A stretch of 64,000 nucleotides of DNA from assembly GCA_964400015.1 (NCBI GenBank), contig CAYNRR010000001.1, forward strand, positions 113,275-177,274, read 5' to 3'. The position numbers were made by a program, and so were the translations under genes. The number at the start of each line of letters is the position of its first letter. The stretch's first letter is position 1. The notes below the pieces were generated by a model. That model saw only the letters and a list, made by a program, of their open reading frames with translations. It made no database searches and was not told the origin of the DNA. Of this stretch, positions 2,567-59,797 are shown in pieces. The stretch comes from an uncultured Eubacteriales bacterium (lineage in GTDB: Bacteria > Bacillota > Clostridia > TANB77 > UBA1234).

Positions 2567-2650
2567 AATCTTGACCTCCAAACTTTTTTCTAAAACAATA
2601 GTATCATAACCCAAAAGTAAAAACAAGTTTAAAAATTAAAGTTACTACAA

Positions 2651-4090: not shown

Positions 4091-4116
4091 CATTTAACGG
4101 ACGTCCCTAGTGTAGC
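4091..4116 (-). repeat. Copy 1 of the conserved 26-nt GC-rich motif ACATTTAACGGACGTCCCTAGTGT; it overlaps the stop codon of giant gene 1
   Basis: The 26-mer is identical to the copy at 15808 and contains the palindrome GGACGTCC. On the minus strand, CAC-TAG encodes the final His and the stop of the gene. Confidence 0.8.
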
Positions 4117-48700: not shown

Positions 48701-51700
48701 AATGGATTTGCTCCCATGCTTGCAACTTGTACAGGTATTGTTAAAATACCTGTCATGTTTTTAGTATCTGCTAATGCAAAATCTCCTATTGCTTTTAGTT
48801 GTGTTGGTAATGTAATTGTTGTAATTGCAGTACCTCTAAAAGCATTGTTTCCTATGCTTGTTACGGTTGAGTCAATACTAATTTCAGTAATTTTTGAAGT
48901 ATATGAATTCCATGGTGTATCTGCTGTTGTAAAGTCTTTCATTTCTCCCATACCTGTTATTAGTAATTGGTATTTTGTATTGTCTTCGTTGTTTATTAAG
49001 TATGCCCAAACATTATCTACTCCTGCATTTTTTGAAATATTCCATGCTTGTTTTAATGATGCAACTTCGTAGTGCATTCCATCAATTTCTTCGTGATAAT
49101 TGTATATTGCTGTGTTGTTTGGTGTCACTACGTTTGTTTTATCTACTGCATTTATTCCACCTTTTATTAAACCATCATAGAAAACTATATTTGAGCCATC
49201 AGTATATACCCCATAACCTTCACCAATGATTGTTACTAAGTTATCGTTTATAATTCCATCATCTGTACCAATAGTTAATATGGCGTTATCAGATATATAT
49301 ATAGCTGATGTGTATGTTGCTCCACCGTTATCTACGGCACTAATAGTTCCACCATTTACATTTAAAGTACCACCATTTACATGCATATATAGAGCAATTG
49401 TATAAAGACCATCTTCCATAGTTGTATCACGGTTTATTGCAATAGTTCCACCATTTACATTTATTGTGCCACCATAATCTAATATTGTACTTTGTATGAT
49501 TCCAACATTTTCAGCACTTACTGTACTTGTTAACGTACCTGAATTTATATTTGTAACAGCTCCATAATTATTAAATAAAATTTCATACTCTCCCGTTCTT
49601 TCACTTACATTTAATTCTATTGTCGCTGTTTCTATATTTAGTTCTCTGTCATTTTGAATTAAGTTAATGTCGTTTCCAACAAGTGATCCAGCACCAGTTA
49701 TATTAAGTACGCCGTAGTTTACTATTCCTCTTTCATTTTTTGTTAGAGCGTATGTACTTAAATCTAATGTAATATTTTTGTTTGTTGGAATTATTGCATT
49801 TACAACATCTGTGCAATCTCTCATAACTTCAACTGTACCTGTTGTAGTAATTGATTCGATTGCAGATTCTAATGTTGAGTAATATTTTTCTCCAACACGA
49901 TAATTTCCTAAAGCAATTGCTATAGTTCTTGTTTGTGTATCTACTACTGTTGTTTCATTTGCTTTATTTGTATATTTCAATGTGTAAGTAATTGTTTTGT
50001 CACCTAGTGTGCTTGTATCTATTGGTAATCCTGCTGTTTCAACTGTGTAACCTAAATCGTTGTAATTTGTAGCGTTTGTGCTATCCCAATCAAATACTGT
50101 TACTCCAGCGTCTACATATTCAGTACCTGCTTCCATTTTTGCTGGGTTATCCCCTAATAAGCTCATGAAAGGCTTAATCTTTTCTGCACCTAGCAATGAA
50201 ATATATGTGCTGTTTGCTTCATACAATGCTTCATCAGAAGTCGTTGGCACGTAAAGAATTGCTTTTTTATCAGATAAGCTGTTATCTGTTGCAATTTGCA
50301 TTAAATCGCTTTCACTCCTTACACTACGTAAAGAAATTATTCTTTCAAGTTTTGTGTTGTTAAGGAAAATGTATTTACCATCAAGTCTAGTAAATTTTTC
50401 ACCTAGTATTACAGTTCTTAAATTTGTACAGTTAGATATTAAAGCAGTTGTATCTGTAAGTGCTTTGCCTGTATCTGCCCACTTATACGCACCTGTAACG
50501 CCATCTAATGCAGAAGTGTCAAAGCTCGATAAATCTAAGAATGTTAAACTTCTACAGTTGTCAAACATTGATGCCATACACTTAGCAGACGAAGTATCGA
50601 AACTTGTAACATTTAATTCCGTTAGAGAATAGCATCCCTTGAACATATGATCAAAATTCGTAACTTTAGATGTATTAAACATAGATACATCTACGCTCTT
50701 TAGTGATTGACAATCTGCAAACATTTCGGCCATATTTGTTATTTTACTTGTATCGAATTGATTGCCTAAATCTAACTCTGTTAAAGCTTTACAGTTATAG
50801 AAAATATGATACATGTTTGTTACATTGCTTGTATTGAACTGAGTTCCCAAATTTAATGTTTCTATCGATGTACAACTTGCGAACATATAACTCATATCTG
50901 TTACTTTACTTGTATCAAATTTTTCTCCCAAATCTATTGCTGACAATAATGTACATCCTCTGAACATAAGTCTTGTAGTAGTAAGTGCTCTTGTGTCAAA
51001 TTGTTTTCCTAAATCTAATGTTGTTAATGAGCTACAATTTTGTAACATGTTACTCATATTCTTTACTTTTATTGTATTAAAGTTTTCACCTAAATTTAAT
51101 TTTGTTAATGAACCACAAGAATAAAACATAGCAGACATACTTGTTACATTGCTTGTATCAAAGTTCGTACCTAAGTTTAATTCTTTTAGTGCACTACAAC
51201 CTGAAAACATTGATTCCATCAATGTTACATTGCTTGTATCAAATCTAGATATGTCTAATGTCTTTAATTTTTTACAATTTCTAAACATTCCAAACATGTT
51301 AGTTGCATTGTTTGTTGTTAAATATTCTATGTTTTTTATCTCTGTCAAATTTGAATATCCATCAAATAACATACACGTATATTTAGCATTTATTGTATTA
51401 GTTGCAACAAAATATTGTGCATAGCATTGTGTATCGCCACTCATTGTTGATGGTACTAAGTATGATGTTACTGTATCTGGTGCACTTGTTGAAGAAACAT
51501 CCCAACTAACAGTAGCATTTGATGCTGCTGTGTCTGTGAATATTACTTTTGTTATAAGGTCAGGTGTATATTCTGTTTTTCCTGCTCTATATGCACCTAT
51601 TACATATTTGTTTGTAATGTATCCATCAATTCCTTCTCTTTCCATCAACTCTATTTTTACTTCTGCATATACACTTTCTGTTTCTATTGGTTGTACTACG

Positions 51701-53541
51701 CTTAGTGCTGCTACGTCTGATGTTTTTTTGTAATCGGCAATTGATGAATTCCATATTACGCATCTTAATTCAAATCCATCTGCACAGTCACCTGATGTCA
51801 TTTTGCTTGTATCCATTGTTAATTTTGCTGTGTTATATCCTGTTGCAATTGATGATGTTACATCTTCCCAGTAGATGTTATCTCCTGATTTGTATTGCCA
51901 TTGGTATTTGTTTGCACCTTTTGCTGTTATTTCAAAAGTTGCTTTTTCGCCATAGTTTATTTTTTGTGTTTCTGGTTGCTTTGTATATTCTAATTCAAAT
52001 TTTGCTGCTTTTATTGAAATGTCGCCTTCTGCTACGGATACAGTAACTATGTCTGATTTTACCGCATCGTGTTCTTTGTAATAATTGTTTCCTACTAAGC
52101 AACGATATTGATAATCTGTGTTACTATATAATCTTGTTTTTGTTGTGAATGTTGACTTCTTTAGTGGTTTTTCTGTTGTTGAATTTGATGGTGTTGATGT
52201 GCTTGAACTACCTTGAGTTGATGTTGCATCTTTCCAGTAGTCATTTTCACTTTCTCTGTATTGCCATGTAAATGTTAAGTTTGTTCCCATTGCCACTACG
52301 CTAAACTTAGCAGTTCCACTTTGAACTTTTACTTTAGTTAAATCTAAAGTTGGTTGTTCCATGATTATTGGAATTTCTCCTACAGATATACTTGTGGCTG
52401 GTGTTAATGATAGTGCCGCTATATCTGATGAAACTCTTTGTTCTTCTGTAAAATATGTGTTACCAACTAAACATCTATATGTGTATTCTTCCATTACTGG
52501 ATATGTTGATACGCTAAGTGTTGCTGATGTTGAACTTGAGCTTACATTTTTCCAATATGTATTTTCGTTTTCTCTATATTGCCATTGGTAAGTTGTTGCA
52601 TTTTCTGCTACTACTTTGAATGTAGCAGTATTTCCTACTATTACTTTTTGTGTTGCTGGTTGTGTTGTTATGCTTGGTGCAAGCGCTGTTGTAACTGTTA
52701 TTGCTATATCTTCATCAACACTTGAGATATTGCATACTTTACCTCTAACATTTCCTAGTGTTGTGATTGCACTATCTCCTGATGCAAGTGTTGATTCTAT
52801 GCTTGCTATACCGTAATTGTTGTTTGGAACAATATTAAAGTTTAATGCTGTTCCTTCTGCTACTGTTGTGTTTCCTACTATTTCTTCTCCGTTTGTATCA
52901 AACACTTTGTAGTTTTCGCCGTCAAATGTTATTTTTCTTGTATTTACTGTGATGATTATATATGTAGAGAAACTGCCTGTTGTAAATTCTATTTCTTCTG
53001 CTGTTAATTTGCTTATTGGCAATATCTCATAGTTTTCGTTGTTCATAATATGCATAAGTGCATATGTTTTTGAATCGTCTATGTCAAGGTTCATGTCTAA
53101 GTTTGAAAGTTTTACTTTTACTTTTTGCCCATACGCAGTTGGTTGATATTTTAGGTTTTCATTTGTTACATCGATATCGAATGCGTCTACTACTTGTTCT
53201 GGTAAAATATCTTTTTTATAGCTTTGTGCTAATGATACTGCGTCTTCTTTATTTAGTTTAGCAACTTCTACTTGCGAATTTTTGATTAGTACACCTGTGA
53301 CTTGAACTTTTTCATTTGTAGAAGTTTGTTCCGATTCTATCTCATCATATTCTACGTAGTTTGAGAAAGGAAGCTTTTCACTACACAAGTCACAAATCAT
53401 ATCGATGTCACTATCGATATGTTCGCAAGATATTAACTTATTTTTTTCAGACTTTCTTATAAAGCCTGCTCCTATTCCAGCCGTGGCTACCAGCACCACT
53501 ATGCTCATTAAAATTAAGATAATCTTGTTCTTTTTCATCAT
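33709..53541 (-). CDS. Giant (6,610 aa) multidomain surface protein: Ig-like domains, DUF285/BspA-type repeats, LRR_5 (BspA-like) repeats and beta-helix regions
   Basis: Single uninterrupted ORF. Its N-terminal ~290 aa are near-identical to giant gene 1. It contains Ig-like domains with a QWQYR motif, three DUF285 arrays (..FDTSNVT.M..MF..C.SL..L), several arrays of FxxxxxLxxIxLPxxLxxIGxxAF (LRR_5), parallel beta-helix-like Gly/Asn-rich repeats, and SbsA-type Ig domains. Its start codon is only 28 bp from the DGR RT stop codon. Confidence 0.8.
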   Translation of the reverse strand: MMKKNKIILILMSIVVLVATAGIGAGFIRKSEKNKLISCEHIDSDIDMICDLCSEKLPFSNYVEYDEIESEQTSTNEKVQVTGVLIKNSQVEVAKLNKEDAVSLAQSYKKDILPEQVVDAFDIDVTNENLKYQPTAYGQKVKVKLSNLDMNLDIDDSKTYALMHIMNNENYEILPISKLTAEEIEFTTGSFSTYIIITVNTRKITFDGENYKVFDTNGEEIVGNTTVAEGTALNFNIVPNNNYGIASIESTLASGDSAITTLGNVRGKVCNISSVDEDIAITVTTALAPSITTQPATQKVIVGNTATFKVVAENATTYQWQYRENENTYWKNVSSSSTSATLSVSTYPVMEEYTYRCLVGNTYFTEEQRVSSDIAALSLTPATSISVGEIPIIMEQPTLDLTKVKVQSGTAKFSVVAMGTNLTFTWQYRESENDYWKDATSTQGSSSTSTPSNSTTEKPLKKSTFTTKTRLYSNTDYQYRCLVGNNYYKEHDAVKSDIVTVSVAEGDISIKAAKFELEYTKQPETQKINYGEKATFEITAKGANKYQWQYKSGDNIYWEDVTSSIATGYNTAKLTMDTSKMTSGDCADGFELRCVIWNSSIADYKKTSDVAALSVVQPIETESVYAEVKIELMEREGIDGYITNKYVIGAYRAGKTEYTPDLITKVIFTDTAASNATVSWDVSSTSAPDTVTSYLVPSTMSGDTQCYAQYFVATNTINAKYTCMLFDGYSNLTEIKNIEYLTTNNATNMFGMFRNCKKLKTLDISRFDTSNVTLMESMFSGCSALKELNLGTNFDTSNVTSMSAMFYSCGSLTKLNLGENFNTIKVKNMSNMLQNCSSLTTLDLGKQFDTRALTTTRLMFRGCTLLSAIDLGEKFDTSKVTDMSYMFASCTSIETLNLGTQFNTSNVTNMYHIFYNCKALTELDLGNQFDTSKITNMAEMFADCQSLKSVDVSMFNTSKVTNFDHMFKGCYSLTELNVTSFDTSSAKCMASMFDNCRSLTFLDLSSFDTSALDGVTGAYKWADTGKALTDTTALISNCTNLRTVILGEKFTRLDGKYIFLNNTKLERIISLRSVRSESDLMQIATDNSLSDKKAILYVPTTSDEALYEANSTYISLLGAEKIKPFMSLLGDNPAKMEAGTEYVDAGVTVFDWDSTNATNYNDLGYTVETAGLPIDTSTLGDKTITYTLKYTNKANETTVVDTQTRTIAIALGNYRVGEKYYSTLESAIESITTTGTVEVMRDCTDVVNAIIPTNKNITLDLSTYALTKNERGIVNYGVLNITGAGSLVGNDINLIQNDRELNIETATIELNVSERTGEYEILFNNYGAVTNINSGTLTSTVSAENVGIIQSTILDYGGTINVNGGTIAINRDTTMEDGLYTIALYMHVNGGTLNVNGGTISAVDNGGATYTSAIYISDNAILTIGTDDGIINDNLVTIIGEGYGVYTDGSNIVFYDGLIKGGINAVDKTNVVTPNNTAIYNYHEEIDGMHYEVASLKQAWNISKNAGVDNVWAYLINNEDNTKYQLLITGMGEMKDFTTADTPWNSYTSKITEISIDSTVTSIGNNAFRGTAITTITLPTQLKAIGDFALADTKNMTGILTIPVQVASMGANPFMGSNITGFSIATGNTNYKVENIALLTYDGKTVVSYPAGNGTATHIINANVENIADYAYAGAKNIAEVYLKSTSIIEIGTEAFTNLQANSVIYTMSKDVADKFVSGTHYTAENTKIYYPPMIDAQPTDVSVNAGHKATFTVTATAGNPADINYQWQYRTSATGTWTNVTDAQGTNGTTATFTTTGLTQAMNGYEYRCVLSNSAYPNAKMTQEKLVGTISNSAKVTVTASNYSVDGVMFDTLAEAYASITGTKGTIKVEADNTDTSELIVESGKDITINTNGHTITLTGKRIANLGTLTINGDGVIKLADDNTTLEYLISTYGTLNIEEVTLINNMNCVLHLKAGILNIKAGQITLNDGNAAIIIDEEQATVNVTGGKIISETNGIYCNLYKTKEFIINISGGTIESNGYAIRTDEKQTGIVNISGGELKSKGSYAIRNYSTSNTVNITGGTLISEYGEAINNPSTGKIVIGSNDETVSTTTPSIIGKTYAITSPNGFGFYDGILKGRTNAYSGDITSIADGYDVYKSEETINGKKYETAYLAPYLMIRNYSLDATSKPYATYVIGAEEAGYTQFTSDKIKSVTFVENTNVPAGATSWDVSEAQDESILAWVKDDNLYIGSDNKVLISPLGLSMLFADYTNCISINNFEIVDVSRATSMYGMFKNIKSMQTFDWSNIDTSKITKTDYTFAECTGLKELDLRNFNTTNVTSMKSMFENCTNLETIVLGENFTKISGANMFAGDTSLSRIIAQRAESMTTTASVGFDTATNAILYVPNQTAKVNYEATTPYETALGSDRIRTILELNGDNPTYKIKGESYTEKGATVAGFDSANATNYTKYGYSVTVDKTSIDTSEVCTQTITYTLNYTENGTTKEVMNITREIVIKGAPELMERETATGAMLGAYRANEATTYNASQVTKVIFTNKIPTNYVDSWDVSLVNGHKTVMSYIVPSELKDGTQYYDQYIVASARITAAYGAKLFYGYSNMTEIDNIEYISTQDATSFESMFSGCTSLEELDLRSFETSNVTVMAEMFNNCSSLLSLDVTNFNTSEVTAMYGMFTNCSSLTKLDLSSFDTSNAGEPQQLRGRGPLFSMFQNCTNLETLVLGEKFNTLNGYYMFNGCENLQKIISNRSVETSSDMMAINSVGIGVRNTPATLYVSSQTAEALYEANSSYINQFTADRIKSLLSLIGDERVKVNLGGSYTEYGYKIADEMPETLEDENIGDYRVTITGVEDIDFSTMGVYDVVYTLEYKNPYDENATYTTFMSLTRKVQVGGIEATVKVEGKNEYDSTLTAKITSSTIPEENYTYQWYICDIKSTNGGTPIEGATNKTYTVGKGLVGKYIYVEVTGNYGEYEEAKFYDLADEANNVSDTIAKKVVTLPKDDNSLVYNGEEQEFIPDGYNEKYMEVTGNTGTDAGTYKAEYILTDPDDCEWDKGEEITEEVIWTIAKKSIAAIWDGPFTFTYNGTEQGPEVHTESVVDGEVVTLTKYIKVDAGNYIAKTRIASVTGGRANANNYVLINETASFKINKATPEFVVTPTQLNITQGNTGILNYTSNVESTITVESADTSVATAGNIDLTGKTIEIISKGTGSTIITVTLDESINYSAATATVVVGTLSANYTDGTNYYETLASAFAGAKDGAIIIQLNEVTENTVAVVESSKTLTLKLNGNNSTIKVNDFITVKGNLTIEGLGTISQSTTDGTSTSSLIVVDGGTLTLKGAVEVNGSNTAITSKGIVNVSENVKITGITGIVNKGKLTFGVAGDVTQRDLVEVIATQTAIENVGEFYWYDGQITANAATIYSGVEPILEESIAICSEINGNKETRYVVRDTEAPVIENIISQTDWVKNSQTLEIIARDNIKVTGYALTETNEMPALDSNVWNTANTFTVTENKSYFVWVKDAAGNVVSKEFVAKWICLEIWDTTGESGTDTRAILKLDGTLLFEVVNGTIGYIKDYTVSNAPWSNDTRVTSVVVSEGIAKIGEYGLSNMIVADSITLPRSLTEIAESALYRTNNYSSINISGNTHFTIDELSIYDISKTTLYSYSKKNTEIDFTIPDTVKTLVTGLFYENGTLVEIRTNKNITSVGEDAFEGFKADVYYYTSCETMKEYALANSEEANFIAIDDVKPVIESFVINNDDISTISQDVTLTIIAKDDVKVSNVFISEQYYTDEEIRNKANSEWISYNGTEYPYTVSSGTGTKTVYVWVKDSSGNISSSVNDSIFYGDIEVKLLNQAEIVQYVDTTGKDYYKYIESVQGGYTSKSNVTVNVTGSVNHKVSGEYEIKYSVMLNDIEMQTLTRTVNVIENSWTGAKGTTQDEFTYVIHTNGKYAKITGYTGEFTRVLRIPASVTLDGTEYKVIDVESIGANRIVETVELPDTLINIGNRAFAEFNELENVDIPDAVMSIDENAFASAGLMNGIFVKLGSNFREIKAEAFKNARISDIDFGSMVKYLGDNAFANVRVPENFVLKLPASLDALGLDTFESTKIYDITVEEGNNKFIIDDDGISLLTNDEEMLVLYPIASDFEEYDIPQGVTTIGRKAFKDAEKLKIVNVSSSANTVNEYAFEGATNLEKVNYSELLTNIGEYAFLNSGVTSFAFNRNLNNISKGAFENSKLTDVSIHSKITSIKAEAFKGITTLKSVVIEGKPSISISAFENCTSLKTAVFTNNTGIVTIADKTSIPDSTTIYVPTSMEVIYESDSIYSQYENCTEKIQPILELIGNQEIVWTINNEYVEDGVKLAGETLKTSANSSTVKGLELVIDGTVDPSKSLRNTIVYIAKYNGVEVDRIERIVDIQDNIAPVIESVTTDSDWVSPYQTFVVKATDNIAVTAYIITTENTVPSVDDSRWQTSEKLKVDANQIWYIFAKDAAGNISTRYQVISTWVAAGKWDVSKNQDNSVHGIITLDGKTLIIKGNGETKNYAEKETPWYEDYKDTVTTITVEDGVTSIGDYLLGYMPNVLTITLPNTLEKVIDGAFAYTNNFENIELGNNTHLVYENGTLYNADKTELYVHTTKHTNDYEIPSNVQKICAAAFANSIYISRLDLTNVKEIQSYAFNGCTHFANQYIPKTLNKIGEKVFAGTRGPIYYYSSCDAMVEYVKAYGSETEFIEIDDIKPVIKNFVINNNEVSTDNENVTLNIDATDNKAISKIIIETTLSENITSGDPRWTDYAGEKEVAYTLTGGNGIKILYVWVMDTSGNICEQYATDTIILGANDFAFEHNDTIVQYVDRTGKGYYEFNEEVQGNYSIETEGVTVTVNANIDVTTVGEKQIVYSLDYYGTPAGEFYKTVDVIEDSWGTTIFSENGFDFVKHTDKNYAKIVKYSGSTNVVFPEIVTDGGIAYRVIEIESLDENPVVDVNTTTVELPTTIIHVGKNAFVNCTKLESINIEYNVLTIEENAFKNTGLKALDTNKNVRVIKEGAFENAHITTLNNSQLLKSIETRAFRNALDTERLTILASIDNIAEGAFAGSLIDKIVLDDENVTSKFKVHEDSLLLDTTTGTLIQYATGKGTISLECPSIGIKKIGEGAFMNATNIQKLSIKDNYTMVGREAFRNTGLTIFELNSNIQAIPEYLFADCTSLSTVILENARSIKANAFENTSALKQLVIFTSADYVCDIDNVSLLNENTKVYVLEKEMYKESASWTAIADRIYSIFRLNGDENITIEAGTEYIDSGVYAIDVLFASTSTYPDIDNITVEINSNVNTAKLGNQTVNYILKLNGNARTELSRNVKVQDTTPPVIEKIITLDVAQAQREKFEIIASDNHKIAGYAITQTDTQPILDSDVWSTSNVVYATQNGEWFVWVKDEAGNVAMETVKAENICAAIWDVGVVPNKVFASISFDNTIIFEGEGAVRYFAKEDIPWKDYLEKVNKIEVREGVTELQKYTLADMTNVGEISLPKSLTKVETSTFAKTNNFYEITFPNGTETFIYDGYTLYSMDKSILYVHSNRDQNITYTIDENVKTIGEYAFANNSNIVTITTTSNPTLLEGAFNNNNTLEKINGEIGGTRIESYVFENCSKLSGIEMSKDVTYIGSYAFSNCNMITEIEMILCTELKTLDHHAFANLKNLQTLKVYRTIANILADEENVRNVFEKMGSNFPENAKVYYYEGCNAMEEYAKYYPDINVDFIMIDEIGPRLMSLKVTNRENGTYSAGTVLEITAIMSENFLTIKGTIPELSIEFGSGSVIKLQPNGVDGRNIKYTYTITKDDLGQLECVSFDGELYDELDNKSEFKGPKTIDGNIYARSGVLLESDFEENKYFPRLSDATEYITSTGKLTMLLNEDAMKVATFKANTLVTLDINGKKVSLNCDQSEDTRLIKNNGTLTVIDSGAGELSTISTGLDACAIENEGTLKLVSGVIRAQTLKTGLAYGVLNKGEVNITGGTISAVNTEGTSYGMYNEGTLKMENGTITSSTIEGKTYALYVANGNVNVTGGQITSRLLSGNKGTTTGVYIEKGTYVSGKNDESISKESPIIYSTKDGLRNVGGKLEFYDGVIEGEAYRSLYTNEVKVVPGYALIKKLVGDREKAYLDFDVSKPIIELKNLTPDWTNDKVTIQAKFIDEESGVQNAYYGETEVTLVNNMITVEVEQNGTYTFKAIDFAGNTAEESITITNIDKESPTFENLSYTAMANQKEVTLTVTVKDNASGVRGYLLSKYEVEPTKWKELNKIMTKVELDISVTSNGKYYLYAIDDAGNIGKYNSVIDITDVDASAPVIKSLEIVDNDRGFANSSVVMIKVDAEDDTGVKEILISNKLLTNNQVLDSEEWVPYTEDVIWTLPIGDGEKTIYVWVKDKANRISKTSTATTKLLAQYIGNNGENSTSFKFLSKDANYNYGKELTADDLYIKVKDTTGAETYTGDYGEGIVLAKTPVVYGPIQEGSQAMSGRYYYVTAQNIAGEGIVYLCFRDTVEVDKAGNKIATAKLELETDVVVELNKPVITVSSTTVTVTDADNHSMNVIKIDGKTIKLSNGSITKSDLKAKYDIELVSGTKLETIDKCGNTAVYTIN

Positions 53542-53569: not shown

Positions 53570-54517
53570 TTAAAACCTTTCACTAAGTAAAATATTGTAG
53601 TTTAAAACTGTGTTGCACATTCCGTTTAAAGCTATCTTTCCTATTTGGTAGAGATATAATCTCCTTTTTATTTTTCTTTTTGCCGTTCTGTATTTACTGT
53701 ATCTTCCATACGAATTTCTTCCCAGGAAAATGAAATTGTCGGTGTCTTTATAAATTCTTGTTTTTTGATTTAATACTAATTTTTCTTTTTCTAAAAATTT
53801 TTCAATTTTTATCAAGCATTCTTTTAAATATTCTTTCGATTGATGCATTACTAATGCATCATCTTGATACCTAATGTAATACTTTATTTTTAGCTCTTCT
53901 TTTATATAATGATCTAAATCATTAAGATAAAAAATTGCTAATATTTGAGATGTCATATTGCCTATCCCTAATCCATGTTCTTCATTATCTATAATTCTAT
54001 AGATAATATCTAAAGCATCTTTGTCTTTTATTTTTTTACTAACTTTATCTTTTAGTATTTCTTTGTCGATACTGAAAAAGAATTTTCTTATATCGAGTTT
54101 TAAAATATAGTAATTACCATATTTATTTTTGCAAATTTTTGAATAGTTTCTAAAATATCTAAGCCCTGCACCCGTTCCTTTATTTGGTCTACTTGCAACG
54201 TTTGTTTCTATAAGTGACGGTACAAGTGCCGGATATAGTATGTATCTGCTCACTAAATGATTTACTAATTTATCTTCCATACTTTGGCTTTCTATTCTTC
54301 TTTCTTTTGGTTCATAGATAGTAAATACATATGGCTTGCTAGGTACGTATTTTTTGCTTTTTAATATTTCGTACACTCTAAAAATATTTCTACATTTGTG
54401 TTCTTTATATCTTGCAACTTTTCTTTTGTTTTTTGTATTTCTGCAAATTTCATCGTAAACTGTCATTATATTTTCTAAATTATATATATCTTTATACAGA
54501 TTACTTTTTCTTTTCAT
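53570..54517 (-). CDS. Diversity-generating retroelement reverse transcriptase
   Basis: RT motifs including YQDD and the DGR-specific GIGNMTSQILAIFYLNDLDHYIKEE (I/LGxxxSQ). 315 aa. GGAGG RBS. Confidence 0.85.
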   Translation of the reverse strand: MKRKSNLYKDIYNLENIMTVYDEICRNTKNKRKVARYKEHKCRNIFRVYEILKSKKYVPSKPYVFTIYEPKERRIESQSMEDKLVNHLVSRYILYPALVPSLIETNVASRPNKGTGAGLRYFRNYSKICKNKYGNYYILKLDIRKFFFSIDKEILKDKVSKKIKDKDALDIIYRIIDNEEHGLGIGNMTSQILAIFYLNDLDHYIKEELKIKYYIRYQDDALVMHQSKEYLKECLIKIEKFLEKEKLVLNQKTRIYKDTDNFIFLGRNSYGRYSKYRTAKRKIKRRLYLYQIGKIALNGMCNTVLNYNILLSERF

Positions 54518-54731
54518 CTCGCCTCCGAAAAAGTAGCACAGGTGAAATTTTATTTCACCTTTTGCACCACTTAAAAATAGTACTAGTATTTACTCCCTTT
54601 CGCTTGTGCTACTAACAAATAAACACATCTATTTTTTATTCTTACTTAAATTGCTTTAAGTAATGGATAACAGTTTGTTTCTAAGATTCTCGTATATCAC
54701 CTTTAGTAGATATACCCACATTTGATAGAAG

Positions 54732-54830
54732 CTACAGGGCGCACCCCATTCGTGTTGTTGTTGTTGTTGTTCACGTTGCCGTTGTTATTCACGTACCACA
54801 AGTTGTTAGAGTTATAAGCAGAGGCTAGCC
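54732..54830 (-). repeat. DGR template repeat (TR), 99 bp
   Basis: 99 bp aligned to the VR at 55810..55908 with 14 mismatches. On the coding (minus) strand the TR carries runs of AAC codons (six consecutive) that align with varied codons in the VR. Confidence 0.85.
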
Positions 54831-54860
54831 TTTTCAACCGTACCCTATGTAATACCCTTT

Positions 54861-55235
54861 TTAAGGTTTATTACCAATTTCTTTTTTGTATGAATTTATC
54901 CATCCTGCATAGTACCTAACGATATTATCTAGTGACTCTCCAAATCTAAAATATCTTTTTGCATTTATGATTTCTTTGTCATAACATTGATTGATTAAAA
55001 AATCTAAAAGTTTTATGTGTGCAACTCCTTTTTCTTGCAAATCTCTTCGTTTATTTTCATCAATTGTTATATTGGCTTCATATGTTATGTACAACAAATC
55101 GTATGCACAGTCTTTTATTTTTCTTTTTAATTCAATTTCTTTGTTTGGGAAATTGACTAAATATTTATCTATTGCTGTAATTAAATCTTTTATCATTTCT
55201 ATTATTTTAAATTTTTCAGTTGGCTTATAATTCAT
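54861..55235 (-). CDS. avd: DGR accessory variability determinant (Avd; four-helix-bundle family)
   Basis: About 124 aa, helical, with a basic patch. The position between target/VR and TR-RT is canonical. Similar to the 23S rRNA intervening-sequence four-helix-bundle protein family. Confidence 0.65.
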   Translation of the reverse strand: MNYKPTEKFKIIEMIKDLITAIDKYLVNFPNKEIELKRKIKDCAYDLLYITYEANITIDENKRRDLQEKGVAHIKLLDFLINQCYDKEIINAKRYFRFGESLDNIVRYYAGWINSYKKEIGNKP

Positions 55236-55665
55236 CAAATATTATCTCCTCTATATTTTGAATTTTCTTTTTTATTGTTGGAGAATTTATATTTTCAATT
55301 AAATAATTGTATATTGCATTTATTCTGTTTTTTATTGTTACATACTTATATGCTTTTTCATAAAGTGAAGTATATTCGTTTTTATCTTTATATTTCATTT
55401 CATGTGATACTTCATAATTTTGTGATTTTACTGTTACGATATAGCTTACTTTGTTATCTTCTAATAATTTTAAGTTTTTATTTAATCCTGCTTTTGGGAA
55501 ACCACATGTATTGTAACTATTTTCTAAGGTTTTAATTTGATACCCACATAAATATGATAGTATGTACGAATCTTTGCCATACACGTGATAAAATGCACCG
55601 ATTTGTATCAATATTATTGTTTCAGGATTTATTTGTTTCATTGTTTTTATCATGGTATCTTTCAT
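55225..55665 (-). CDS. MutS-domain-I-like (mismatch-binding-domain-like) small protein encoded inside the DGR cassette
   Basis: 146 aa. NPETIILIQIGAFYHVYGKDSYIL...NTCGFPKAGLNKNLKLLEDNKVSYIVTVKSQ aligns with MutS domain I (E. coli [21 protein letters not shown]...[29 protein letters not shown]). The phenylalanine of the GxFxE motif is conserved, but the glutamate is replaced by histidine. Confidence 0.5.
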   Translation of the reverse strand: MKDTMIKTMKQINPETIILIQIGAFYHVYGKDSYILSYLCGYQIKTLENSYNTCGFPKAGLNKNLKLLEDNKVSYIVTVKSQNYEVSHEMKYKDKNEYTSLYEKAYKYVTIKNRINAIYNYLIENINSPTIKKKIQNIEEIIFDEL

Positions 55666-55738
55666 TTTATTCCCCCCATTTTTTGTTTTTTCTCCGTAAG
55701 CAGACCTTAGGCCTGCTCACGGACATACTGTTCAAGTT

Positions 55739-57172
55739 TTATTCCATATTTATATTCCATGCACCTATCATGTCTGTGCCTTCGGCTAGGACCTCAGACT
55801 TTAGAGAAACTACAGGGCGCACCCCATTCGCGTAGTAGCTGTTGCTGTACACGTAGCCGCTGCTATCCACGCACCACAAGTCGCGAGAGTTATAAGCAGA
55901 GGCTAGCCAGTAGTATGCGTAGTTGCCACTATTAGTAGCAGGTACAGCTAATAAGTCTTGATACTTAGCTGCTGTTACAGATGTACCAGATTTGGTGGTT
56001 GTATTCCCTGTTGGATCGTATACTTTATCCAAATCTTCTTTTGTCATTGCACGTACTTTTAAAGTACCTGCCTTTTTTTCTCCTGTAACAGTAGTTGTAG
56101 CTCCAGAATATTGTGTACTAGTATATGTAACTGTTGTATCTTGTGTATATGTTGCTGTATATTTATTAGTAAAAACTTCTGTTAATGTTTGAAAAGGATT
56201 AAATCCTGTTGTTCTATAGGTATTATCATCTGATGAAGAAAACGCTGTTGTTAAAAAATTTATAGCTAAATTTTTTATACTTGTAGTTGGATAACTATAA
56301 TGACGATAAGTTAAAGGTACACCAGCACTTACCAGGTTCACCGTTCCTGGTGCAGGATTTCCGTCTATATCTACATCTTTACTTAGAACTCTCCATCCTC
56401 TTCTTTTAGCAATGTAACTACTACCACCATTACTTGATACATTATCATAATAAACCGGATAATTTACGTAGTCCCCTATTTCTACTACTTCTGAAAGTTG
56501 TGGCAATGCACCTAAACTTGTTGTCCATACTGCATAAAGCGTTGCTGATGTTTCTGTTCCTATTTGTACTGCAGCAGGAATTATATCTCCTTGTCTGTAG
56601 CTTGGTGTTGTTGCGTTTTTGTCTGTGCTCCAACCTAAAAAGTAGTATCCCTCTCTTGTAGGTGTTTGACTTGTTACTACAAATGGTGCGCCGTGAACTC
56701 TTGTTGTTGCAAGACCTGTAGGCATTGTTGCATCTGTTGCATTTACATCGTATGTTACTGTTTGAGATACTGAGCTGTCATATATTATTGAAGTATTTCC
56801 GTTTGCATCTTTAAGTGCAAGGTATAGAGTATTTGTACCACTTAGGTTTGGAAGTGTCATTTCAATAACCTTGTTTGTTTCATAATCTTCCCAAGCTGTA
56901 ATTTTTTCAGTATTAGAAATTGGGCTTGTGCTTATGTAGTACTTAATCTCGTTATCTGCACACATATTGTCTGCTGCAAAAATTTGCACTTGAACTTTTG
57001 CTCTGTCTACGTAATTTACATTATTTACTTCTGTCGCTCCTATTATTTGAAGTCTGCCCCATGGAGCAACTACATCATTGTCGTAATAAAGGTTTTCTGC
57101 AAAAGCTATACTACTCATTCCAAGTATTAGCCCTGCTCCACAGCATAACTTTTTTAAATATTTTTTATTCAT
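55739..57172 (-). CDS. DGR target protein: secreted, with a Flg_new repeat and a C-terminal DUF1566-like C-type-lectin-fold domain carrying the VR
   Basis: Signal peptide MNKKYLKKLCCGAGLILGMSSIAFA, GYYFLGWSTDKN...LYAVW (Listeria/Bacteroides repeat), and C-terminal ...YYWLASAYNSRDLWCVDSSGYVYSNSYYANGVRPVVSL, in which the diversified codons lie. Confidence 0.8.
   Translation of the reverse strand: MNKKYLKKLCCGAGLILGMSSIAFAENLYYDNDVVAPWGRLQIIGATEVNNVNYVDRAKVQVQIFAADNMCADNEIKYYISTSPISNTEKITAWEDYETNKVIEMTLPNLSGTNTLYLALKDANGNTSIIYDSSVSQTVTYDVNATDATMPTGLATTRVHGAPFVVTSQTPTREGYYFLGWSTDKNATTPSYRQGDIIPAAVQIGTETSATLYAVWTTSLGALPQLSEVVEIGDYVNYPVYYDNVSSNGGSSYIAKRRGWRVLSKDVDIDGNPAPGTVNLVSAGVPLTYRHYSYPTTSIKNLAINFLTTAFSSSDDNTYRTTGFNPFQTLTEVFTNKYTATYTQDTTVTYTSTQYSGATTTVTGEKKAGTLKVRAMTKEDLDKVYDPTGNTTTKSGTSVTAAKYQDLLAVPATNSGNYAYYWLASAYNSRDLWCVDSSGYVYSNSYYANGVRPVVSLKSEVLAEGTDMIGAWNINME
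55810..55908 (-). repeat. DGR variable repeat (VR) inside the 3' end of the target gene
   Basis: See TR. The IMH-like GC-rich end GGGGTGCGCCCTGTAG is on the minus strand. Confidence 0.85.
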
Positions 57173-57192
57173 TAAAATTCTCCTCTCTTTAA

Positions 57193-57741
57193 CTAGTTGT
57201 CGTTATTTGCAATTTCTATTTTTACATCGCTGGCATAAGTAATATCTTCAAGCACATATGTTTTAAACTTGCTACTCTCTAGCCCTGCAAGGTCGGTTAA
57301 AATTCCACCAAAAACATCTTGTACTTCGCCACTTTCATTTAGTGCTTTAATACTCAAGCTTTCTGCTTTTGAATATTCTTCTGATGTATTTTTTACATCT
57401 GCTGTAAAAGTGCATTTGCCACTATCTATCTTGCCGATTTTCATGTTTGAAAACTCAACATTTCCAAGCTTTTGCACGCCAGAAACATTTACATACTCCA
57501 TTACTGTATCGTTGTTATCTAGTCTTCCTTGTATGCTACCCTCATACTCTGGAATGTTTTCATAGTCCTTATCTACAACATCGTCATCTCCGATTTCATC
57601 ACCAGAGCTAGTTTCTATTTTCTGCTCTTTTTTCCTCATCAAATCGTTAGAAGAACTTGAAAGAGTAAAAGCTTTTATAAACAGCAGTATTAACCCCATC
57701 ATTGCAGCCAGCAAACAAATGTAACCAATGTTTTTTTTCAT
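57193..57741 (-). CDS. Membrane-anchored hypothetical protein immediately upstream of, and likely co-transcribed with, the DGR target
   Basis: AAGGAG RBS then MKKNIGYICLLAAMMGLILLFI. The gap to the target gene start is 21 bp. Confidence 0.45.
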   Translation of the reverse strand: MKKNIGYICLLAAMMGLILLFIKAFTLSSSSNDLMRKKEQKIETSSGDEIGDDDVVDKDYENIPEYEGSIQGRLDNNDTVMEYVNVSGVQKLGNVEFSNMKIGKIDSGKCTFTADVKNTSEEYSKAESLSIKALNESGEVQDVFGGILTDLAGLESSKFKTYVLEDITYASDVKIEIANNDN

Positions 57742-58117
57742 TCTTCTCACTCCTTTCATCCAGAATAAATCATCTTGGCTTGATTATAGCTTTTTCGCCA
57801 CACCAATTCAACACGCGTATACGCGCGAAATATAATTATAGGTAGGGTTTGCGAGCTTCAGCAACTTGTTTTTACTTTACGGAAGATAGTTTCACGCAAA
57901 TTATTTGTGTTGCTATTTTACGTTTTATTAAGTTTAACTTACTTTTTTATTACACACCTGTTACAAGAGCAACAAACTGCGTGGCTGAAAGTCCTTTAAA
58001 ATATGGTTTCCGTAAGTGAAGAAGTATAAAAAAATAGAAAATGTACAGGAACTATCCTGCACATTTTCTATTTTTAGTTTTTATTACTTTTTAGGACTAT
58101 TAGTTTGTTTCATATTT

Positions 58118-59317
58118 TTATACACTCTTATCTAATAACCATTCCAACACATTTTGAATTATAATACCTTCTTCGTTATATACTGGAATATGATCCATGG
58201 TTAATATGGTTTTGGTGTAATTATCAGGTATCTTTTGCAATGAATTTAACTCTCGTGCTAATATTCTATTTTCATTATCTCTTAAAGTTTCACAAACTTG
58301 GATATATTGTTTTCCTTTGCTATTTATAGCTACAAAGTCAACTTCTAGGTTATCAACTTTTCCAATAAAAACTTCATAACCTCGTCTTAATAATTCCAAG
58401 TAAACAACGTTTTCCAATATATGACCACTATCGCCTGGCTTTCTTCCCAACATAAAATATCTTAGCCCCAGGTCTGAAACGTAGTATTTTTCACCTGTTT
58501 TCAAATATTGTTTTCCTTTTATATCATACCTTGTTGCTTTATATAAGAAAAATGACTCTATAAAACCTTCAAGATATCTTTCAACAGTTCTAGAGTTTAT
58601 GGTTCTACCGTCACTTGTTAAAGTGTTTGCAATAGTATTTGCAGAAGTCAAATTGCCAATATTGTCTAACGCAAAATTTGCAACACTTTTTAACATTGAT
58701 TCACTAGTTATATTCTTTCTTATCATTACATCTTTTATAATTACATCGTTATATAATCCACCTAAATATTTTCCGATTTCATCTTCTTCTAACTCAGTTG
58801 TGTAAGGGAAACTACCCAATGAAACATAATTGCTATAAATCTTTTCTAAGTTATCGGTATTCATTGTACTGCAATATTCTTTAAAAGATAACGGCAACAT
58901 TTTAATTTCTATATATCTTCCAGATAAAAGTGTAGCAAGCTCAGATGACAACAAATTAGCGTTAGATCCAGTTATATATAAATCAATGTTTTTATTTATA
59001 TATAAACTATCAATTGCTTTTTGGAAGTTTTCGATTTGTTGAACTTCATCTATAAACACATAATTCTTTTTATTTTCTACTAGGTTATCAACTACATAAG
59101 TATATAAATCCATATATGTTTTTATAAAGTTATATCGTAAATCTTCCAAATTTATGCTTATAATCTGCTTTTCATCGATGCCATTTTCGAGTAGATATTT
59201 TCTAAACATCTCTAAAATAGTACTTTTACCACATCTCTTAATTCCCGTAACGACTTTTATTAAATCTTTATCTTTAAATTTCTTTAATTCATTTATGTAT
59301 TCAGTTCTTTCTATCAT
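58118..59317 (-). CDS. AAA-family ATPase (AAA_14 + DUF4143 architecture)
   Basis: Walker A GIKRCGKST, a Walker B-like VFIDEVQ, and a C-terminal DUF4143-like region. Confidence 0.7.
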   Translation of the reverse strand: MIERTEYINELKKFKDKDLIKVVTGIKRCGKSTILEMFRKYLLENGIDEKQIISINLEDLRYNFIKTYMDLYTYVVDNLVENKKNYVFIDEVQQIENFQKAIDSLYINKNIDLYITGSNANLLSSELATLLSGRYIEIKMLPLSFKEYCSTMNTDNLEKIYSNYVSLGSFPYTTELEEDEIGKYLGGLYNDVIIKDVMIRKNITSESMLKSVANFALDNIGNLTSANTIANTLTSDGRTINSRTVERYLEGFIESFFLYKATRYDIKGKQYLKTGEKYYVSDLGLRYFMLGRKPGDSGHILENVVYLELLRRGYEVFIGKVDNLEVDFVAINSKGKQYIQVCETLRDNENRILARELNSLQKIPDNYTKTILTMDHIPVYNEEGIIIQNVLEWLLDKSV

Positions 59318-59342
59318 AATAAATTTATCCTTTTTCTTCTTT

Positions 59343-59597
59343 CTATATTTTATCTATTTCATCACGTAGTTCTTCTTCCGAAAATTTTTCGCCGTTTTCT
59401 AATGAATCAATTCCTTTCTTTAGTTCTTTATATAGTACTTGAGTATTTGTTAAAACTTCAAATAATTCAATACTCATTACAGCTAAGTCACCATAACCAT
59501 TTTTGGTAATATATACAGGATTGTTTGTTTTATGGCAAATCTCTGAAATTTCATTGTATTTATTTCTTAAATCTGAACTTGGTCTAATAAGTGGCAT
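59343..59597 (-). CDS. Phd/YefM-family type II antitoxin-like protein
   Basis: MPLIRPSSDLRNKYNEISEICHKTNNPVYITKNGYGDLAVMSIELFE is a canonical Phd/YefM N-terminal fold. No Doc, YoeB or RelE toxin is adjacent; the next gene is the AAA ATPase. Confidence 0.65.
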   Translation of the reverse strand: MPLIRPSSDLRNKYNEISEICHKTNNPVYITKNGYGDLAVMSIELFEVLTNTQVLYKELKKGIDSLENGEKFSEEELRDEIDKI

Positions 59598-59741
59598 ATT
59601 AACTCCCTCCCTATAAATTCTATCGATATATTATCGTAATATTGATATTTTATCAATATATTTTCAGTGGAGTAATAGAAATCTAGTCAAATTATAAAAA
59701 CAAAATTATATTATCGACAAGAAAGAAAAAATGTGCTAAAA

Positions 59742-59779
59742 TGTAACAAAAGGGTGTGAAAATACATACTTTTGTTACA
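59742..59779 (+). promoter_or_regulatory. Inverted-repeat operator (TGTAACAAAAG-N16-CTTTTGTTACA) upstream of abiEi
   Basis: Perfect 11-bp inverted repeat ending 19 bp before the abiEi ATG. AbiEi antitoxins autoregulate through inverted repeats. Confidence 0.45.
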
Positions 59780-59797
59780 AAAAGCGTGGGGATATAA

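What the first reader, a model, noticed from the sequence alone, without database searches (positions are those of the whole stretch)
55225..55665. A stand-alone MutS mismatch-binding-domain (domain I)-like ORF between the VR and avd inside the DGR
The 146-aa ORF is translationally coupled between the target gene and avd. It aligns with MutS domain I (..IILIQIGAFYHVYGKDS.. against ..[17 protein letters not shown].., and ..CGFPKAGLNKNLKLLEDNKVSYIVTVKSQ against ..[28 protein letters not shown]). The mismatch-contacting phenylalanine is conserved, but the catalytic or structural glutamate of GxFxE is replaced by histidine. DGR mutagenic homing necessarily creates heteroduplex or mismatched intermediates at the VR. 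A dedicated mismatch-binding module in the cassette could protect or fix the new information against mismatch repair, or direct strand choice. The accessory genes usually listed for DGRs are Avd and HRDC-type proteins. A MutS-domain-I-only accessory is, to my knowledge, not a described DGR component.
Basis: inference. Interest (0 to 1): 0.8.

Follow-up and report, generated by a model that had tools for sequence, protein, structure and literature searches.

The report
Known MutS-like (MSL) DGR accessory gene
The small gene between the variable target gene and avd really does encode a stand-alone copy of the mismatch-binding domain of MutS, but this "MSL" accessory protein of diversity-generating retroelements was already described in 2017/2018; its function is still untested.

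Summary

The novelty claim is wrong. Wu et al. 2018 (PMC5758913) named this accessory gene class MSL ("MutS-like"). Later reviews list it, one paper ties it to PF01624, and Bacteroides DGRs encode it. The family is large: 1,128 cluster representatives at 50% identity. Of 26 full-length genomic copies, 21 have avd and an RT next to them.

I found no functional study. My best inference is that MSL is an Avd-linked DNA-distortion-binding subunit of the retrohoming complex.

Three side observations may be new:
- Natural MSL-Avd fusion proteins exist.
- Some cassettes carry a second MSL paralogue.
- In this MSL lineage the hairpin after the target gene always carries a fixed G·T (or G·A) mispair, unlike the perfect GRNA-loop hairpins of the MSL-less phage DGRs compared here.

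The parts
55739..57172 (-). DGR target (variable protein) gene, 477 aa. It has an N-terminal signal-like segment, a Flg_new repeat and a C-terminal DUF6273 (C-type-lectin-like) domain that carries the VR.
   Evidence: Flg_new 8e-7; DUF6273 4.5e-5, residues 410-459. The C-lectin-like reading of DUF6273 comes from PMC10743442.
55810..55908 (-). Variable region (VR). The homology with TR extends to 55795. A GC-rich IMH-like block, GAATGGGGTGCGCCCTGTAG, lies at 55810-55829.
   Evidence: The 99 nt are in register with TR and have 14 mismatches, all at TR adenines.
55693..55723 (-). GC-rich hairpin TCCGTGAGCAGGCC-TAA-GGTCTGCTTACGGA. It lies between the target gene's stop codon and the MSL start codon and has G.T pairs at stem positions 3 and 9 counted from the loop. 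It is the candidate DGR target-recognition hairpin.
   Evidence: DNA fold -11.7 kcal/mol, z = -5.1. (the only GC-rich hairpin of this kind in the 64-kb window, which is 31% GC). (no T tract, so not terminator-like). (conserved and covarying in related loci).
55225..55665 (-). MSL (MutS-like) accessory gene, 146 aa. Residues about 1-92 form a MutS domain I fold. Two long C-terminal helices (98-124 and 129-145) have no MutS counterpart.
54861..55235 (-). avd (accessory variability determinant). Its ATG overlaps the 3' end of MSL by 11 nt, and a GAGGAG Shine-Dalgarno-like sequence lies inside MSL.
   Evidence: bAvd 4.8e-7; phrog_3206 5.5e-12; NCBIfam DivGenRetAVD 1.9e-8, 34.5 bits, below its cut-off of 80.
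54732..54830 (-). Template repeat (TR). No comparable hairpin follows it.
53570..54517 (-). DGR reverse transcriptase, 315 aa, with no C-terminal extension.
   Evidence: (RVT_1 2.1e-16).

Best explanation
The ORF is an ordinary member of the already described MSL (MutS-like) family of DGR accessory proteins.

What the protein is:
- It is a MutS mismatch-binding domain (domain I) cut loose from the rest of MutS. It has no connector, lever, clamp or ATPase domain, and it carries a family-specific C-terminal pair of helices.
- It keeps the G-x-F wedge motif and the GFP turn of domain I.
- It does not keep the glutamate that, in MutS, couples mismatch contact to repair licensing.

How I think it works:
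- It is made together with Avd (overlapping genes) and works as a partner or subunit of the Avd-RT retrohoming complex.
- It gives that complex a module that grips non-Watson-Crick or kinked DNA at the target. The most likely ligand is the densely mismatched duplex that forms when adenine-mutagenised cDNA pairs with the parental VR.
- Binding there would hold the intermediate and keep host MutS off it, so that the new sequence becomes fixed instead of being reverted.

What is shown and what is inferred:
- Shown here: the fold, the family, the DGR context and the genetic linkage to avd.
- Inferred: DNA binding, the identity of the ligand and the effect on mismatch repair.
For: Family membership:
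- Pfam MutS_I above threshold. All 29 diverse family members also match it.
- Fold searches return only MutS/MSH at the top.
- The size, the co-occurrence with avd, the absence of HRDC and the position in a DGR match the published MSL definition.

DGR linkage:
- 21 of 26 full-length genomic homologues have avd and an RT adjacent.
- Five of nine metagenome look-ups show complete cassettes.

Selection on the wedge:
- F25 is kept in 166 of 169 members, G23 in 165 of 169 and D32 in 167 of 169.
- The Glu38-equivalent position 27 is free: H 77, Y 17, N 17, E 16, K 14, R 13.
- MutS E38 mutants still bind a G.T mismatch in crystals (1wb9, 1wbb, 1wbd).

Link to Avd and RT:
- The MSL stop overlaps the avd start by 4-29 nt in most loci.
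- P0374 is a natural fusion of MutS_I (residues 1-66) and a complete bAvd domain (120-223). It is identical on five contigs, four of which were retrieved from four different samples, and it sits inside a DGR with 16 of 16 adenine-specific differences.
- Three DGR RTs carry a weak C-terminal MutS_I motif according to Wu et al..

Relevance of mismatch repair:
- Deleting mutS raised VR mutagenesis 5- to 10-fold in a Bacteroides DGR, in an all-or-nothing manner.
Against: - I found no experiment on any MSL protein.
- In MutS, domain I binds DNA together with the clamp domains of a dimer. Whether a 146-aa monomer binds mismatches at all is unknown.
- BPP-1 retrohoming does not need MutS, as Wu et al. 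report.
- The constitutively active Bacteroides elements (Bov and Bfi) are not among the three reported to encode Msl. MSL is therefore not generally required.
- Several full-length MSL genes sit in decayed cassettes that lack avd and RT (L007, L017, L031, L033, L125).
- Shielding 14 or more mismatches from MutS with a small protein is stoichiometrically demanding.
Confidence: 0.55

Rival explanations
1. Target-hairpin reader. MSL recognises the fixed G.T (or G.A) mispair in the hairpin that follows the target gene. That hairpin would form as a cruciform or as single-stranded DNA at a replication fork. MSL would thereby dock the Avd-RT-cDNA complex at the correct VR, taking over the role that the GRNA tetraloop plays in BPP-1-type DGRs.
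For: - In 25 of 25 distinct loci of this MSL lineage (MSL 37-100% identical), a hairpin lies between the target stop codon and the MSL start codon. It has a G(5').T(3') pair (23 loci) or a G.A pair (2 loci) two or three pairs below the loop. That position is never Watson-Crick.
- The rest of the stem covaries: 97.3% of cells are paired, 11 of 11 pairs show compensatory changes, 0 of 500 shuffles reach this, and slid controls give about 40%.
- A second non-Watson-Crick site lies 6 bp further out in 14 of 20 loci.
- About 45 MSL-less phage DGR loci analysed with the same pipeline show mostly perfect GC stems with GRNA tetraloops 31-46 nt after the VR. This matches Guo et al. 2011.
- The hairpin is not a terminator and matches no Rfam family.
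- From my own knowledge, G.T is the best-bound MutS substrate.
Against: - All 25 loci belong to one DGR lineage, so the association may simply be inherited.
- Two other MSL-bearing lineages do not show the motif. L254-L257 have no GC-rich hairpin within 260 nt of either VR. L250 has hairpins with G.T at other positions.
- Ordinary terminators in this window also carry G.U pairs on the transcribed strand, so a wobble is equally compatible with an RNA-level element.
- The hairpin lies about 70 nt beyond the VR, further than the 4-34 bp of the tested BPP-1-type elements.
Confidence: 0.17
2. Role in cDNA synthesis rather than at the target. MSL binds the mismatched TR-RNA:cDNA hybrid or the primer-template junction. 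It would help the RT extend past misincorporations opposite adenine, or stabilise the RNP.
For: - MSL is linked to Avd and RT by gene overlap and by natural fusions (RT fusions).
- From my own knowledge of the BPP-1 work, Avd-RT is the cDNA-synthesising unit.
- Adenine mutagenesis necessarily creates mismatched RNA:DNA termini.
Against: - To my knowledge, MutS domain I is not known to read RNA:DNA hybrids.
- Most DGRs, including the best-studied ones, synthesise mutagenised cDNA without MSL.
- There is no direct evidence.
Confidence: 0.12
3. A free-standing dominant-negative inhibitor of host mismatch repair in general (a mutator or anti-MMR factor). It would not be part of the DGR machinery as such.
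For: - It has domain I without the ATPase.
- mutS deletion raises DGR output.
- Engineered DGR systems benefit from a dominant-negative MutL.
Against: - A global mutator would be costly.
- The tight, ordered linkage to avd and the fusions to Avd argue for action within the complex.
- From my own knowledge, domain I does not mediate MutS dimerisation or MutL contact.
Confidence: 0.08
4. Structure-specific nuclease or nickase acting on the target. MutS domain I shares its fold with the tRNA-splicing endonuclease catalytic domain.
For: - The step that opens the target DNA in retrohoming is unknown.
Confidence: 0.03

Closest known systems
MSL (MutS-like) accessory proteins of DGRs (Wu, Gingery, ... 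Zimmerly, NAR 2018; PMC5758913), 'Architecture D'
   Same: Both are small stand-alone proteins (146 aa here, published range 112-283) with MutS domain I homology. Both are encoded inside a DGR, always with avd and without HRDC. In this window the gene order is target, MSL, avd, TR, RT. The Pfam assignment PF01624 matches the one given in PMC10053308.
   Different: Nothing essential differs. The pI is somewhat higher: 8.8 here and 8.5 +/- 1.1 for 126 relatives, against the published 7.2 +/- 1.7. I could not compare directly with the 16 published sequences because the supplement is not held.
Msl of the Bacteroides DGRs Bfr, Bth and Bun (Macadangdang et al., bioRxiv 2024.11.15.621889)
   Same: Both are an accessory factor additional to Avd, with homology to the MutS mismatch-recognition domain, in gut-bacterial DGRs that diversify surface proteins.
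   Different: The host phylum differs (the relatives here are gut Clostridia MAGs). The target type differs (Flg_new/DUF6273 protein here, type V pilus tip proteins there). No sequence comparison was possible.
MutS / MSH mismatch-repair proteins, domain I (PF01624)
   Different: Only domain I is present. There are no connector, lever, clamp or ATPase domains, so no sliding clamp and no MutL signalling. Glu38 is replaced by His, and this position varies across the family. Two extra C-terminal helices are present.
BPP-1-type DGR target hairpin/cruciform (Guo et al. 2011, PMC3240598)
   Same: Both are a GC-rich inverted repeat downstream of the VR and absent after the TR. In both, the stem sequence is free but pairing is conserved.
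   Different: Here the stem is 14 bp, the loop is a 3-nt TAA rather than GRNA, the hairpin is about 70 nt beyond the VR rather than 4-34 bp and lies after the stop codon, and a non-Watson-Crick G.T is fixed in the stem.
XPB (Rad25) damage-recognition domain
   Different: The structural similarity is much weaker, there is no sequence relationship, and the domain is part of a helicase.

Membership tests
MSL (MutS-like) DGR accessory family | Small stand-alone protein (published range 112-283 aa) | tested here: met
   146 aa. The median length of all 193 retrieved sequences, including fragments, is 142 aa.
MSL (MutS-like) DGR accessory family | Detectable homology to the MutS mismatch-binding domain | tested here: met
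MSL (MutS-like) DGR accessory family | Encoded within a bona fide DGR cassette (RT plus a TR/VR pair with adenine-specific differences) | tested here: met
   14 of 14 mismatches at TR adenines. RT matches RVT_1. The same arrangement is seen in related loci.
MSL (MutS-like) DGR accessory family | Co-occurs with avd and not with HRDC | tested here: met
   avd is directly downstream and overlapping. No HRDC hit on the Pfam-scanned ORFs: the five cassette ORFs from 53570 to 57759, four flanking ORFs up to 61503 and the first 2000 aa of the giant ORF downstream of the RT.
MSL (MutS-like) DGR accessory family | Direct sequence or profile similarity to a published MSL (Legionella Corby, Bacteroides Bfr/Bth/Bun) | not testable with these tools
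   The supplement of PMC5758913 is not held, and no Legionella or Bacteroides locus was retrieved.
Canonical MutS (mismatch-repair ATPase) | Phe-X-Glu mismatch-contact motif | tested here: not met
   Phe is present (F25) but Glu is replaced by H27. Across the family this position is H, Y, N, E, K or R.
Canonical MutS (mismatch-repair ATPase) | Domains II-V, including the ABC ATPase and the clamp | tested here: not met
   The protein is 146 aa and has only a MutS_I hit. The NCBIfam MutS equivalog scores 14.8 bits against a cut-off of 480.
BPP-1-type DGR target hairpin | 7-10 bp GC-rich perfect stem, 4-nt GRNA loop, 4-34 bp from the VR | tested here: not met
   The stem is 14 bp with two G.T pairs, the loop is TAA, and the hairpin is about 70 nt from the end of the VR alignment.

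The most novel reading that the evidence does not exclude
In this lineage of DGRs the target is marked by a covarying hairpin that carries an obligatory G.T (or G.A) mispair, not by a GRNA-loop hairpin. The cassette's own MutS-domain-I protein, delivered on Avd, reads that mispair with its Phe wedge and so docks the cDNA-RT-Avd complex at the VR. This would make MSL the first identified protein that recognises a DGR target site. It would also be a case of a mismatch-repair sensor domain being reused as a sequence-independent DNA address reader.
Probability: 0.17. Interest if true: 0.75.

Novelty: new member of a known kind. Interest (0 to 1): 0.3.

Why it matters
As a discovery, it matters little. 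The gene class has been named, counted, built into DGR annotation tools and listed in reviews since 2017/2018.

It still matters as an open problem. I found no test of what MSL does. How DGR cDNA finds and replaces the VR, and how it escapes mismatch repair, are the main unsolved steps of mutagenic retrohoming. They also limit engineered DGR mutagenesis systems, which currently rely on mutS deletion or a dominant-negative MutL.

- the strict conservation of the Phe wedge while the Glu is lost;
- the natural MSL-Avd fusions;
- the lineage-specific hairpin with a fixed mispair.

There is also an annotation point. NCBIfam has no MSL model, and the only two named relatives in the searches are labelled 'hypothetical protein', so these genes may go unrecognised in automated annotation.

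Tried and rejected
- Sequence searches of the PDB with the protein and with the family profile found nothing. Only Pfam's profile and the fold comparisons see MutS.
- PHROGs has no family for the ORF.
- tblastn against PLSDB plasmids and INPHARED phages found no match.
- Four IMG/VR scans with MSL queries (A-type alignment, L039 type, MSL-B, P0188 type) found no relatives. I found no evidence that these MSL types are phage-borne.
- The metagenome scan with a distant MSL pair returned only two short contigs, which were uninformative for the hairpin test.
- Scanning IMG/VR for the hairpin core GCAGGCCNNNGGTCTGC gave 120 hits. All are in phage contigs of about 60% GC with no RT, avd or MSL, so they are chance matches.
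- I tested whether MSL travels with the target as a conserved 'target-hairpin-MSL' unit. This is rejected. L017 and L125 are not syntenic orthologues (adh_short 29% identical), and the L017 MSL is 96.6% identical to that of the complete L019 cassette. They are recently decayed copies.
- L036 is a decayed second cassette copy whose VR still matches the L019 TR.
- No second MSL gene exists in this window.
- No Rfam family and no terminator signature fit the hairpin.
- The AFDB Foldseek library was unavailable.
- The exact protein is in NCBI without a name, and its contig could not be retrieved.

Full report
**1. What is in the sequence**

The minus strand of 53570-57172 holds a compact operon-like cassette:
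- a 477-aa secreted-type protein (55739..57172);
- a 73-nt spacer;
- the 146-aa ORF of the finding (55225..55665);
- a 124-aa ORF whose ATG (55235) overlaps the end of the 146-aa ORF by 11 nt (54861..55235);
- a non-coding stretch;
- a 315-aa ORF (53570..54517).

Pfam, PHROGs and NCBIfam identify the last two as Avd and a reverse transcriptase.

A 99-nt repeat lies between avd and RT (54732..54830). It recurs at the 3' end of the first gene (55810..55908). The two copies differ at 14 positions, and all 14 are adenines in the avd-proximal copy. This is the signature of a diversity-generating retroelement (DGR): template repeat, variable region and adenine-specific mutagenesis. The GC-rich block GAATGGGGTGCGCCCTGTAG that ends both copies occurs nowhere else in the window.

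**2. The ORF is a MutS domain I protein**

- Pfam's MutS_I model matches residues 7-83 at 34.3 bits, against a gathering threshold of 20.6.
- A profile of 25 homologues aligns to E. coli MutS residues 19-90 (hhalign E = 1.7e-5).
- An AlphaFold model built on that alignment is confident (pLDDT 90.9).
- Its 50 best Foldseek matches in the PDB are all MutS, MSH3 or MSH6 chains, with rmsd 1.2-2 A over 72-90 columns.
- Residues 98-145 form two long helices with no MutS counterpart.
- No other MutS domain is present.

Plain sequence searches of the PDB see nothing, so the similarity is remote but solid.

**3. It is a family, and the family belongs to DGRs**

- The protein has 45 close cluster relatives, nearly all about 146 aa.
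- A profile search of 1.84 billion cluster representatives finds 1,128 at E <= 1e-3 and 329 at E <= 1e-10. The best 150 are all 70-190 aa.
- A broader profile finds 1,985 clusters at 90% identity.
- All 29 members of a diverse alignment pass Pfam MutS_I.

In one genome per species, 31 loci were found. Thirty of their record titles name Clostridia-type gut bacteria or give no phylum, and one names Muribaculaceae. Scoring these loci with RT, Avd and MSL profiles gave the following for the 26 full-length copies:
- 21 have avd directly downstream and an RT within about 2 kb;
- one has avd only;
- one has RT fragments;
- three have neither.

Metagenome look-ups show the same order (target, MSL, avd, TR, RT) at 47-73% identity. 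In most loci the MSL stop and the avd start overlap by 4-29 nt.

**4. It is already known**

Wu et al. surveyed 372 DGRs (NAR 2018, published online November 2017, PMC5758913). They defined two new accessory gene classes, one of them 'MSL (MutS-like)':
- 16 DGRs carry it;
- the proteins are 112-283 aa;
- three are annotated as MutS homologues and 11 are supported by Phyre2;
- they are always found with avd and never with HRDC;
- one is in the Legionella DGR;
- they form 'Architecture D'.

The same paper notes weak MutS_I motifs fused to three DGR RTs and speculates about mismatch repair.

Later work takes MSL as established:
- Reviews list Avd, HRDC, MSL and CH1 as the accessory proteins.
- One study assigns MSL to PF01624 and recovers it as DGR-associated.
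- MyDGR compares neighbouring genes against HMMs built from the accessory genes identified in that survey.
- The Bacteroides DGRs Bfr, Bth and Bun encode 'Msl'.
- A 2026 preprint cites 'many MutS-like homologs in natural DGR systems' as the reason for suppressing mismatch repair.

The window ORF meets every published feature of MSL that I could test (see the membership table). I could not align it to the published sequences, because the supplement is not held. NCBIfam has no MSL model, and the only two named relatives in the searches are labelled 'hypothetical protein'.

**5. What can be said about mechanism**

I found no experimental work on MSL, so everything below the level of fold is inference.

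(a) The wedge is under selection. Across 169 aligned relatives, F25 is kept in 166, G23 in 165 and D32 in 167. The position equivalent to MutS Glu38 is unconstrained: H 77, Y 17, N 17, E 16, K 14, R 13. In more distant members it is I, L, A or V. From my own knowledge of the MutS literature, Phe36 stacks on the mismatched base, whereas Glu38 mainly serves discrimination and licensing of repair. E38A, E38Q and E38T MutS still crystallise on a G.T mismatch (1wbb, 1wbd, 1wb9). A module that keeps Phe, drops Glu and has no ATPase looks like a binder that cannot signal.

(b) It is tied to Avd. Besides the overlapping genes, there are natural fusions. P0374 (226 aa) is MutS_I (1-66) plus a complete bAvd domain (120-223), and both pass Pfam's thresholds. 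It is identical on five contigs, four of which were retrieved from four different samples, and its end is overlapped by the RT gene. It sits in a DGR whose TR and VR differ at 16 of 16 adenines. A second apparent fusion, P0264, comes from a single contig and may be a frameshift. Together with the RT-MutS_I fusions of Wu et al., this argues that MSL acts inside the Avd-RT complex.

(c) Mismatch repair does restrain DGRs. Deleting mutS raised VR mutagenesis 5- to 10-fold in B. ovatus without changing the mutation pattern.

My best-supported reading is that MSL is an Avd-borne module that grips the mismatched cDNA:VR intermediate, so that it is fixed rather than reverted. I give about 0.55 to the general 'distorted-DNA-binding subunit at the target' idea, and less to any specific ligand.

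**6. A side observation that bears on mechanism**

The 73-nt spacer upstream of the ORF holds the only GC-rich hairpin of its kind in this 31%-GC window (55693..55723). Its sequence is TCCGTGAGCAGGCC-TAA-GGTCTGCTTACGGA, with z = -5.1 and no T tract.

In relatives:
- The same element sits between the target stop codon and the MSL start codon in 25 distinct loci whose MSL proteins are 37-100% identical to this one.
- Stem sequences differ but pairing is kept. On a 23-sequence alignment, 97.3% of cells pair, all 11 pairs show compensatory changes, no shuffle out of 500 reaches this, and slid controls pair at about 40%.
- Against that background one pair, two or three below the loop, is never Watson-Crick. 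It is G.T in 23 loci and G.A in 2, always with G on the 5' arm. In one search this appears as G.U 19 and other 2, plus two sequences that are one column out of register.
- A second such site lies 6 bp further out in 14 of 20 loci.

For comparison I collected 80 MSL-less phage DGR loci with an RT profile. About 45 of them gave distinct TR/VR-bearing loci when run through the same TR/VR and hairpin pipeline. They show the classical elements of Guo et al. 2011: mostly perfect 6-11-bp GC stems with GATA, GAAA or GCAA loops, 31-46 nt after the VR.

A G.T mispair in a DNA hairpin next to a gene for a MutS mismatch-binding domain suggests that MSL reads the hairpin. I rate this at only about 0.17, for three reasons:
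- All 25 loci are one lineage.
- Two other MSL-bearing lineages do not show the motif. L254-L257 have no GC-rich hairpin near either VR, and L250 has G.T at other stem positions.
- Ordinary terminators in the window also carry G.U on the transcribed strand, so an RNA-level role is not excluded.

I found no paper describing this feature.

**7. Verdict**

- The structural interpretation is confirmed.
- The DGR association is confirmed.
- The claim of novelty is refuted.

The ORF is a new, unannotated member of a known accessory family whose function remains an open question. Interest in the finding as stated is low. The hairpin with a fixed mispair and the MSL-Avd fusions are the parts worth following up.

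Noticed in passing
window 55693-55723 (-); also L001, L002, L009, L011-L013, L015-L019, L021, L024, L026-L030, L032, L034, L038, L124, L125, L127 upstream of their MSL genes: A covarying GC-rich hairpin lies between the target stop codon and the MSL start codon. Two or three pairs below the loop it has a pair that is never Watson-Crick: G.T in 23 loci and G.A in 2, out of 25. A second such site often lies 6 bp further out. This differs from the mostly perfect GRNA-loop hairpins of about 45 MSL-less phage DGR loci. I found no description of it in the held literature.
   Followed up: yes
L250 2092-2772 (also L251-L253); L127 1743-2366: Natural fusion proteins of MutS domain I and a complete Avd domain. 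P0374 (226 aa) is identical on five contigs, four of which were retrieved from four different samples, and sits in a DGR ordered target, TR, fusion, RT. P0264 (207 aa) comes from a single contig and may be a frameshift.
   Followed up: partly
L001 8089-8496(-), L002 8083-8484(-), L021 about 2676-3149(-), L022 about 2442-2873(-), L127 3655-4092(-): Some cassettes carry a second, divergent MutS_I gene ('MSL-B', 133-145 aa, with motif G-x-F-x-I/L). It lies just upstream of a reverse-oriented RT, so the architecture is target, MSL, avd, TR, then RT and MSL-B on the opposite strand. The window has only one MSL gene.
   Followed up: partly
L254 4571-5011 (+): In another MSL lineage, a degenerate A-type MSL copy sits between the first target and the intact 133-aa MSL. 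It has no canonical start codon, Gly is replaced by Tyr and the wedge Phe by Lys, and it has no Pfam hit. This DGR has two targets flanking the cassette, with 16 of 21 and 20 of 23 differences at TR adenines.
   Followed up: partly
window 33709-53541 (-): A 6,610-aa ORF starts 29 nt after the RT stop codon. Its first 2,000 aa contain DUF285, BspA-type LRR_5 and Ig domains. A 1,129-aa DUF285/LRR_5 protein occupies the same position in L005 and L006. It contains no copy of the IMH-like end block shared by TR and VR, so it does not look like a DGR target. A second giant ORF (3,691 aa) lies at 4107-15182.
   Followed up: partly
window 58118-61503: A defence or addiction-type cluster lies upstream of the cassette: an AAA_14/DUF4143 ATPase (58118-59317, -), a Phd/YefM antitoxin (59343-59597, -), a 250-aa ORF with no Pfam match (59798-60550, +) that overlaps the start of an AbiEii nucleotidyltransferase toxin gene (60544-61503, +). 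An AAA_14/DUF4143 gene also flanks the L254-L257 DGRs.
   Followed up: no
L036 7689-8349 and L019 (same MAG, CAOKQZ01): L036 is a decayed second cassette copy (MSL fragment plus RT fragment). Its VR still matches the TR of the intact cassette on another contig, with 26 of 28 differences at TR adenines. It may still be diversified in trans.
   Followed up: partly
L002-L004 (relaxase, MobC, integrase), L001 (Mob_Pre), L122 (TraG, integrase), L007/L008 (serine recombinase): Several MSL-type DGRs lie next to mobilisation or integration genes. No MSL relative was found in IMG/VR, INPHARED or PLSDB. This suggests carriage on integrative mobilisable elements rather than on phages or plasmids.
   Followed up: no
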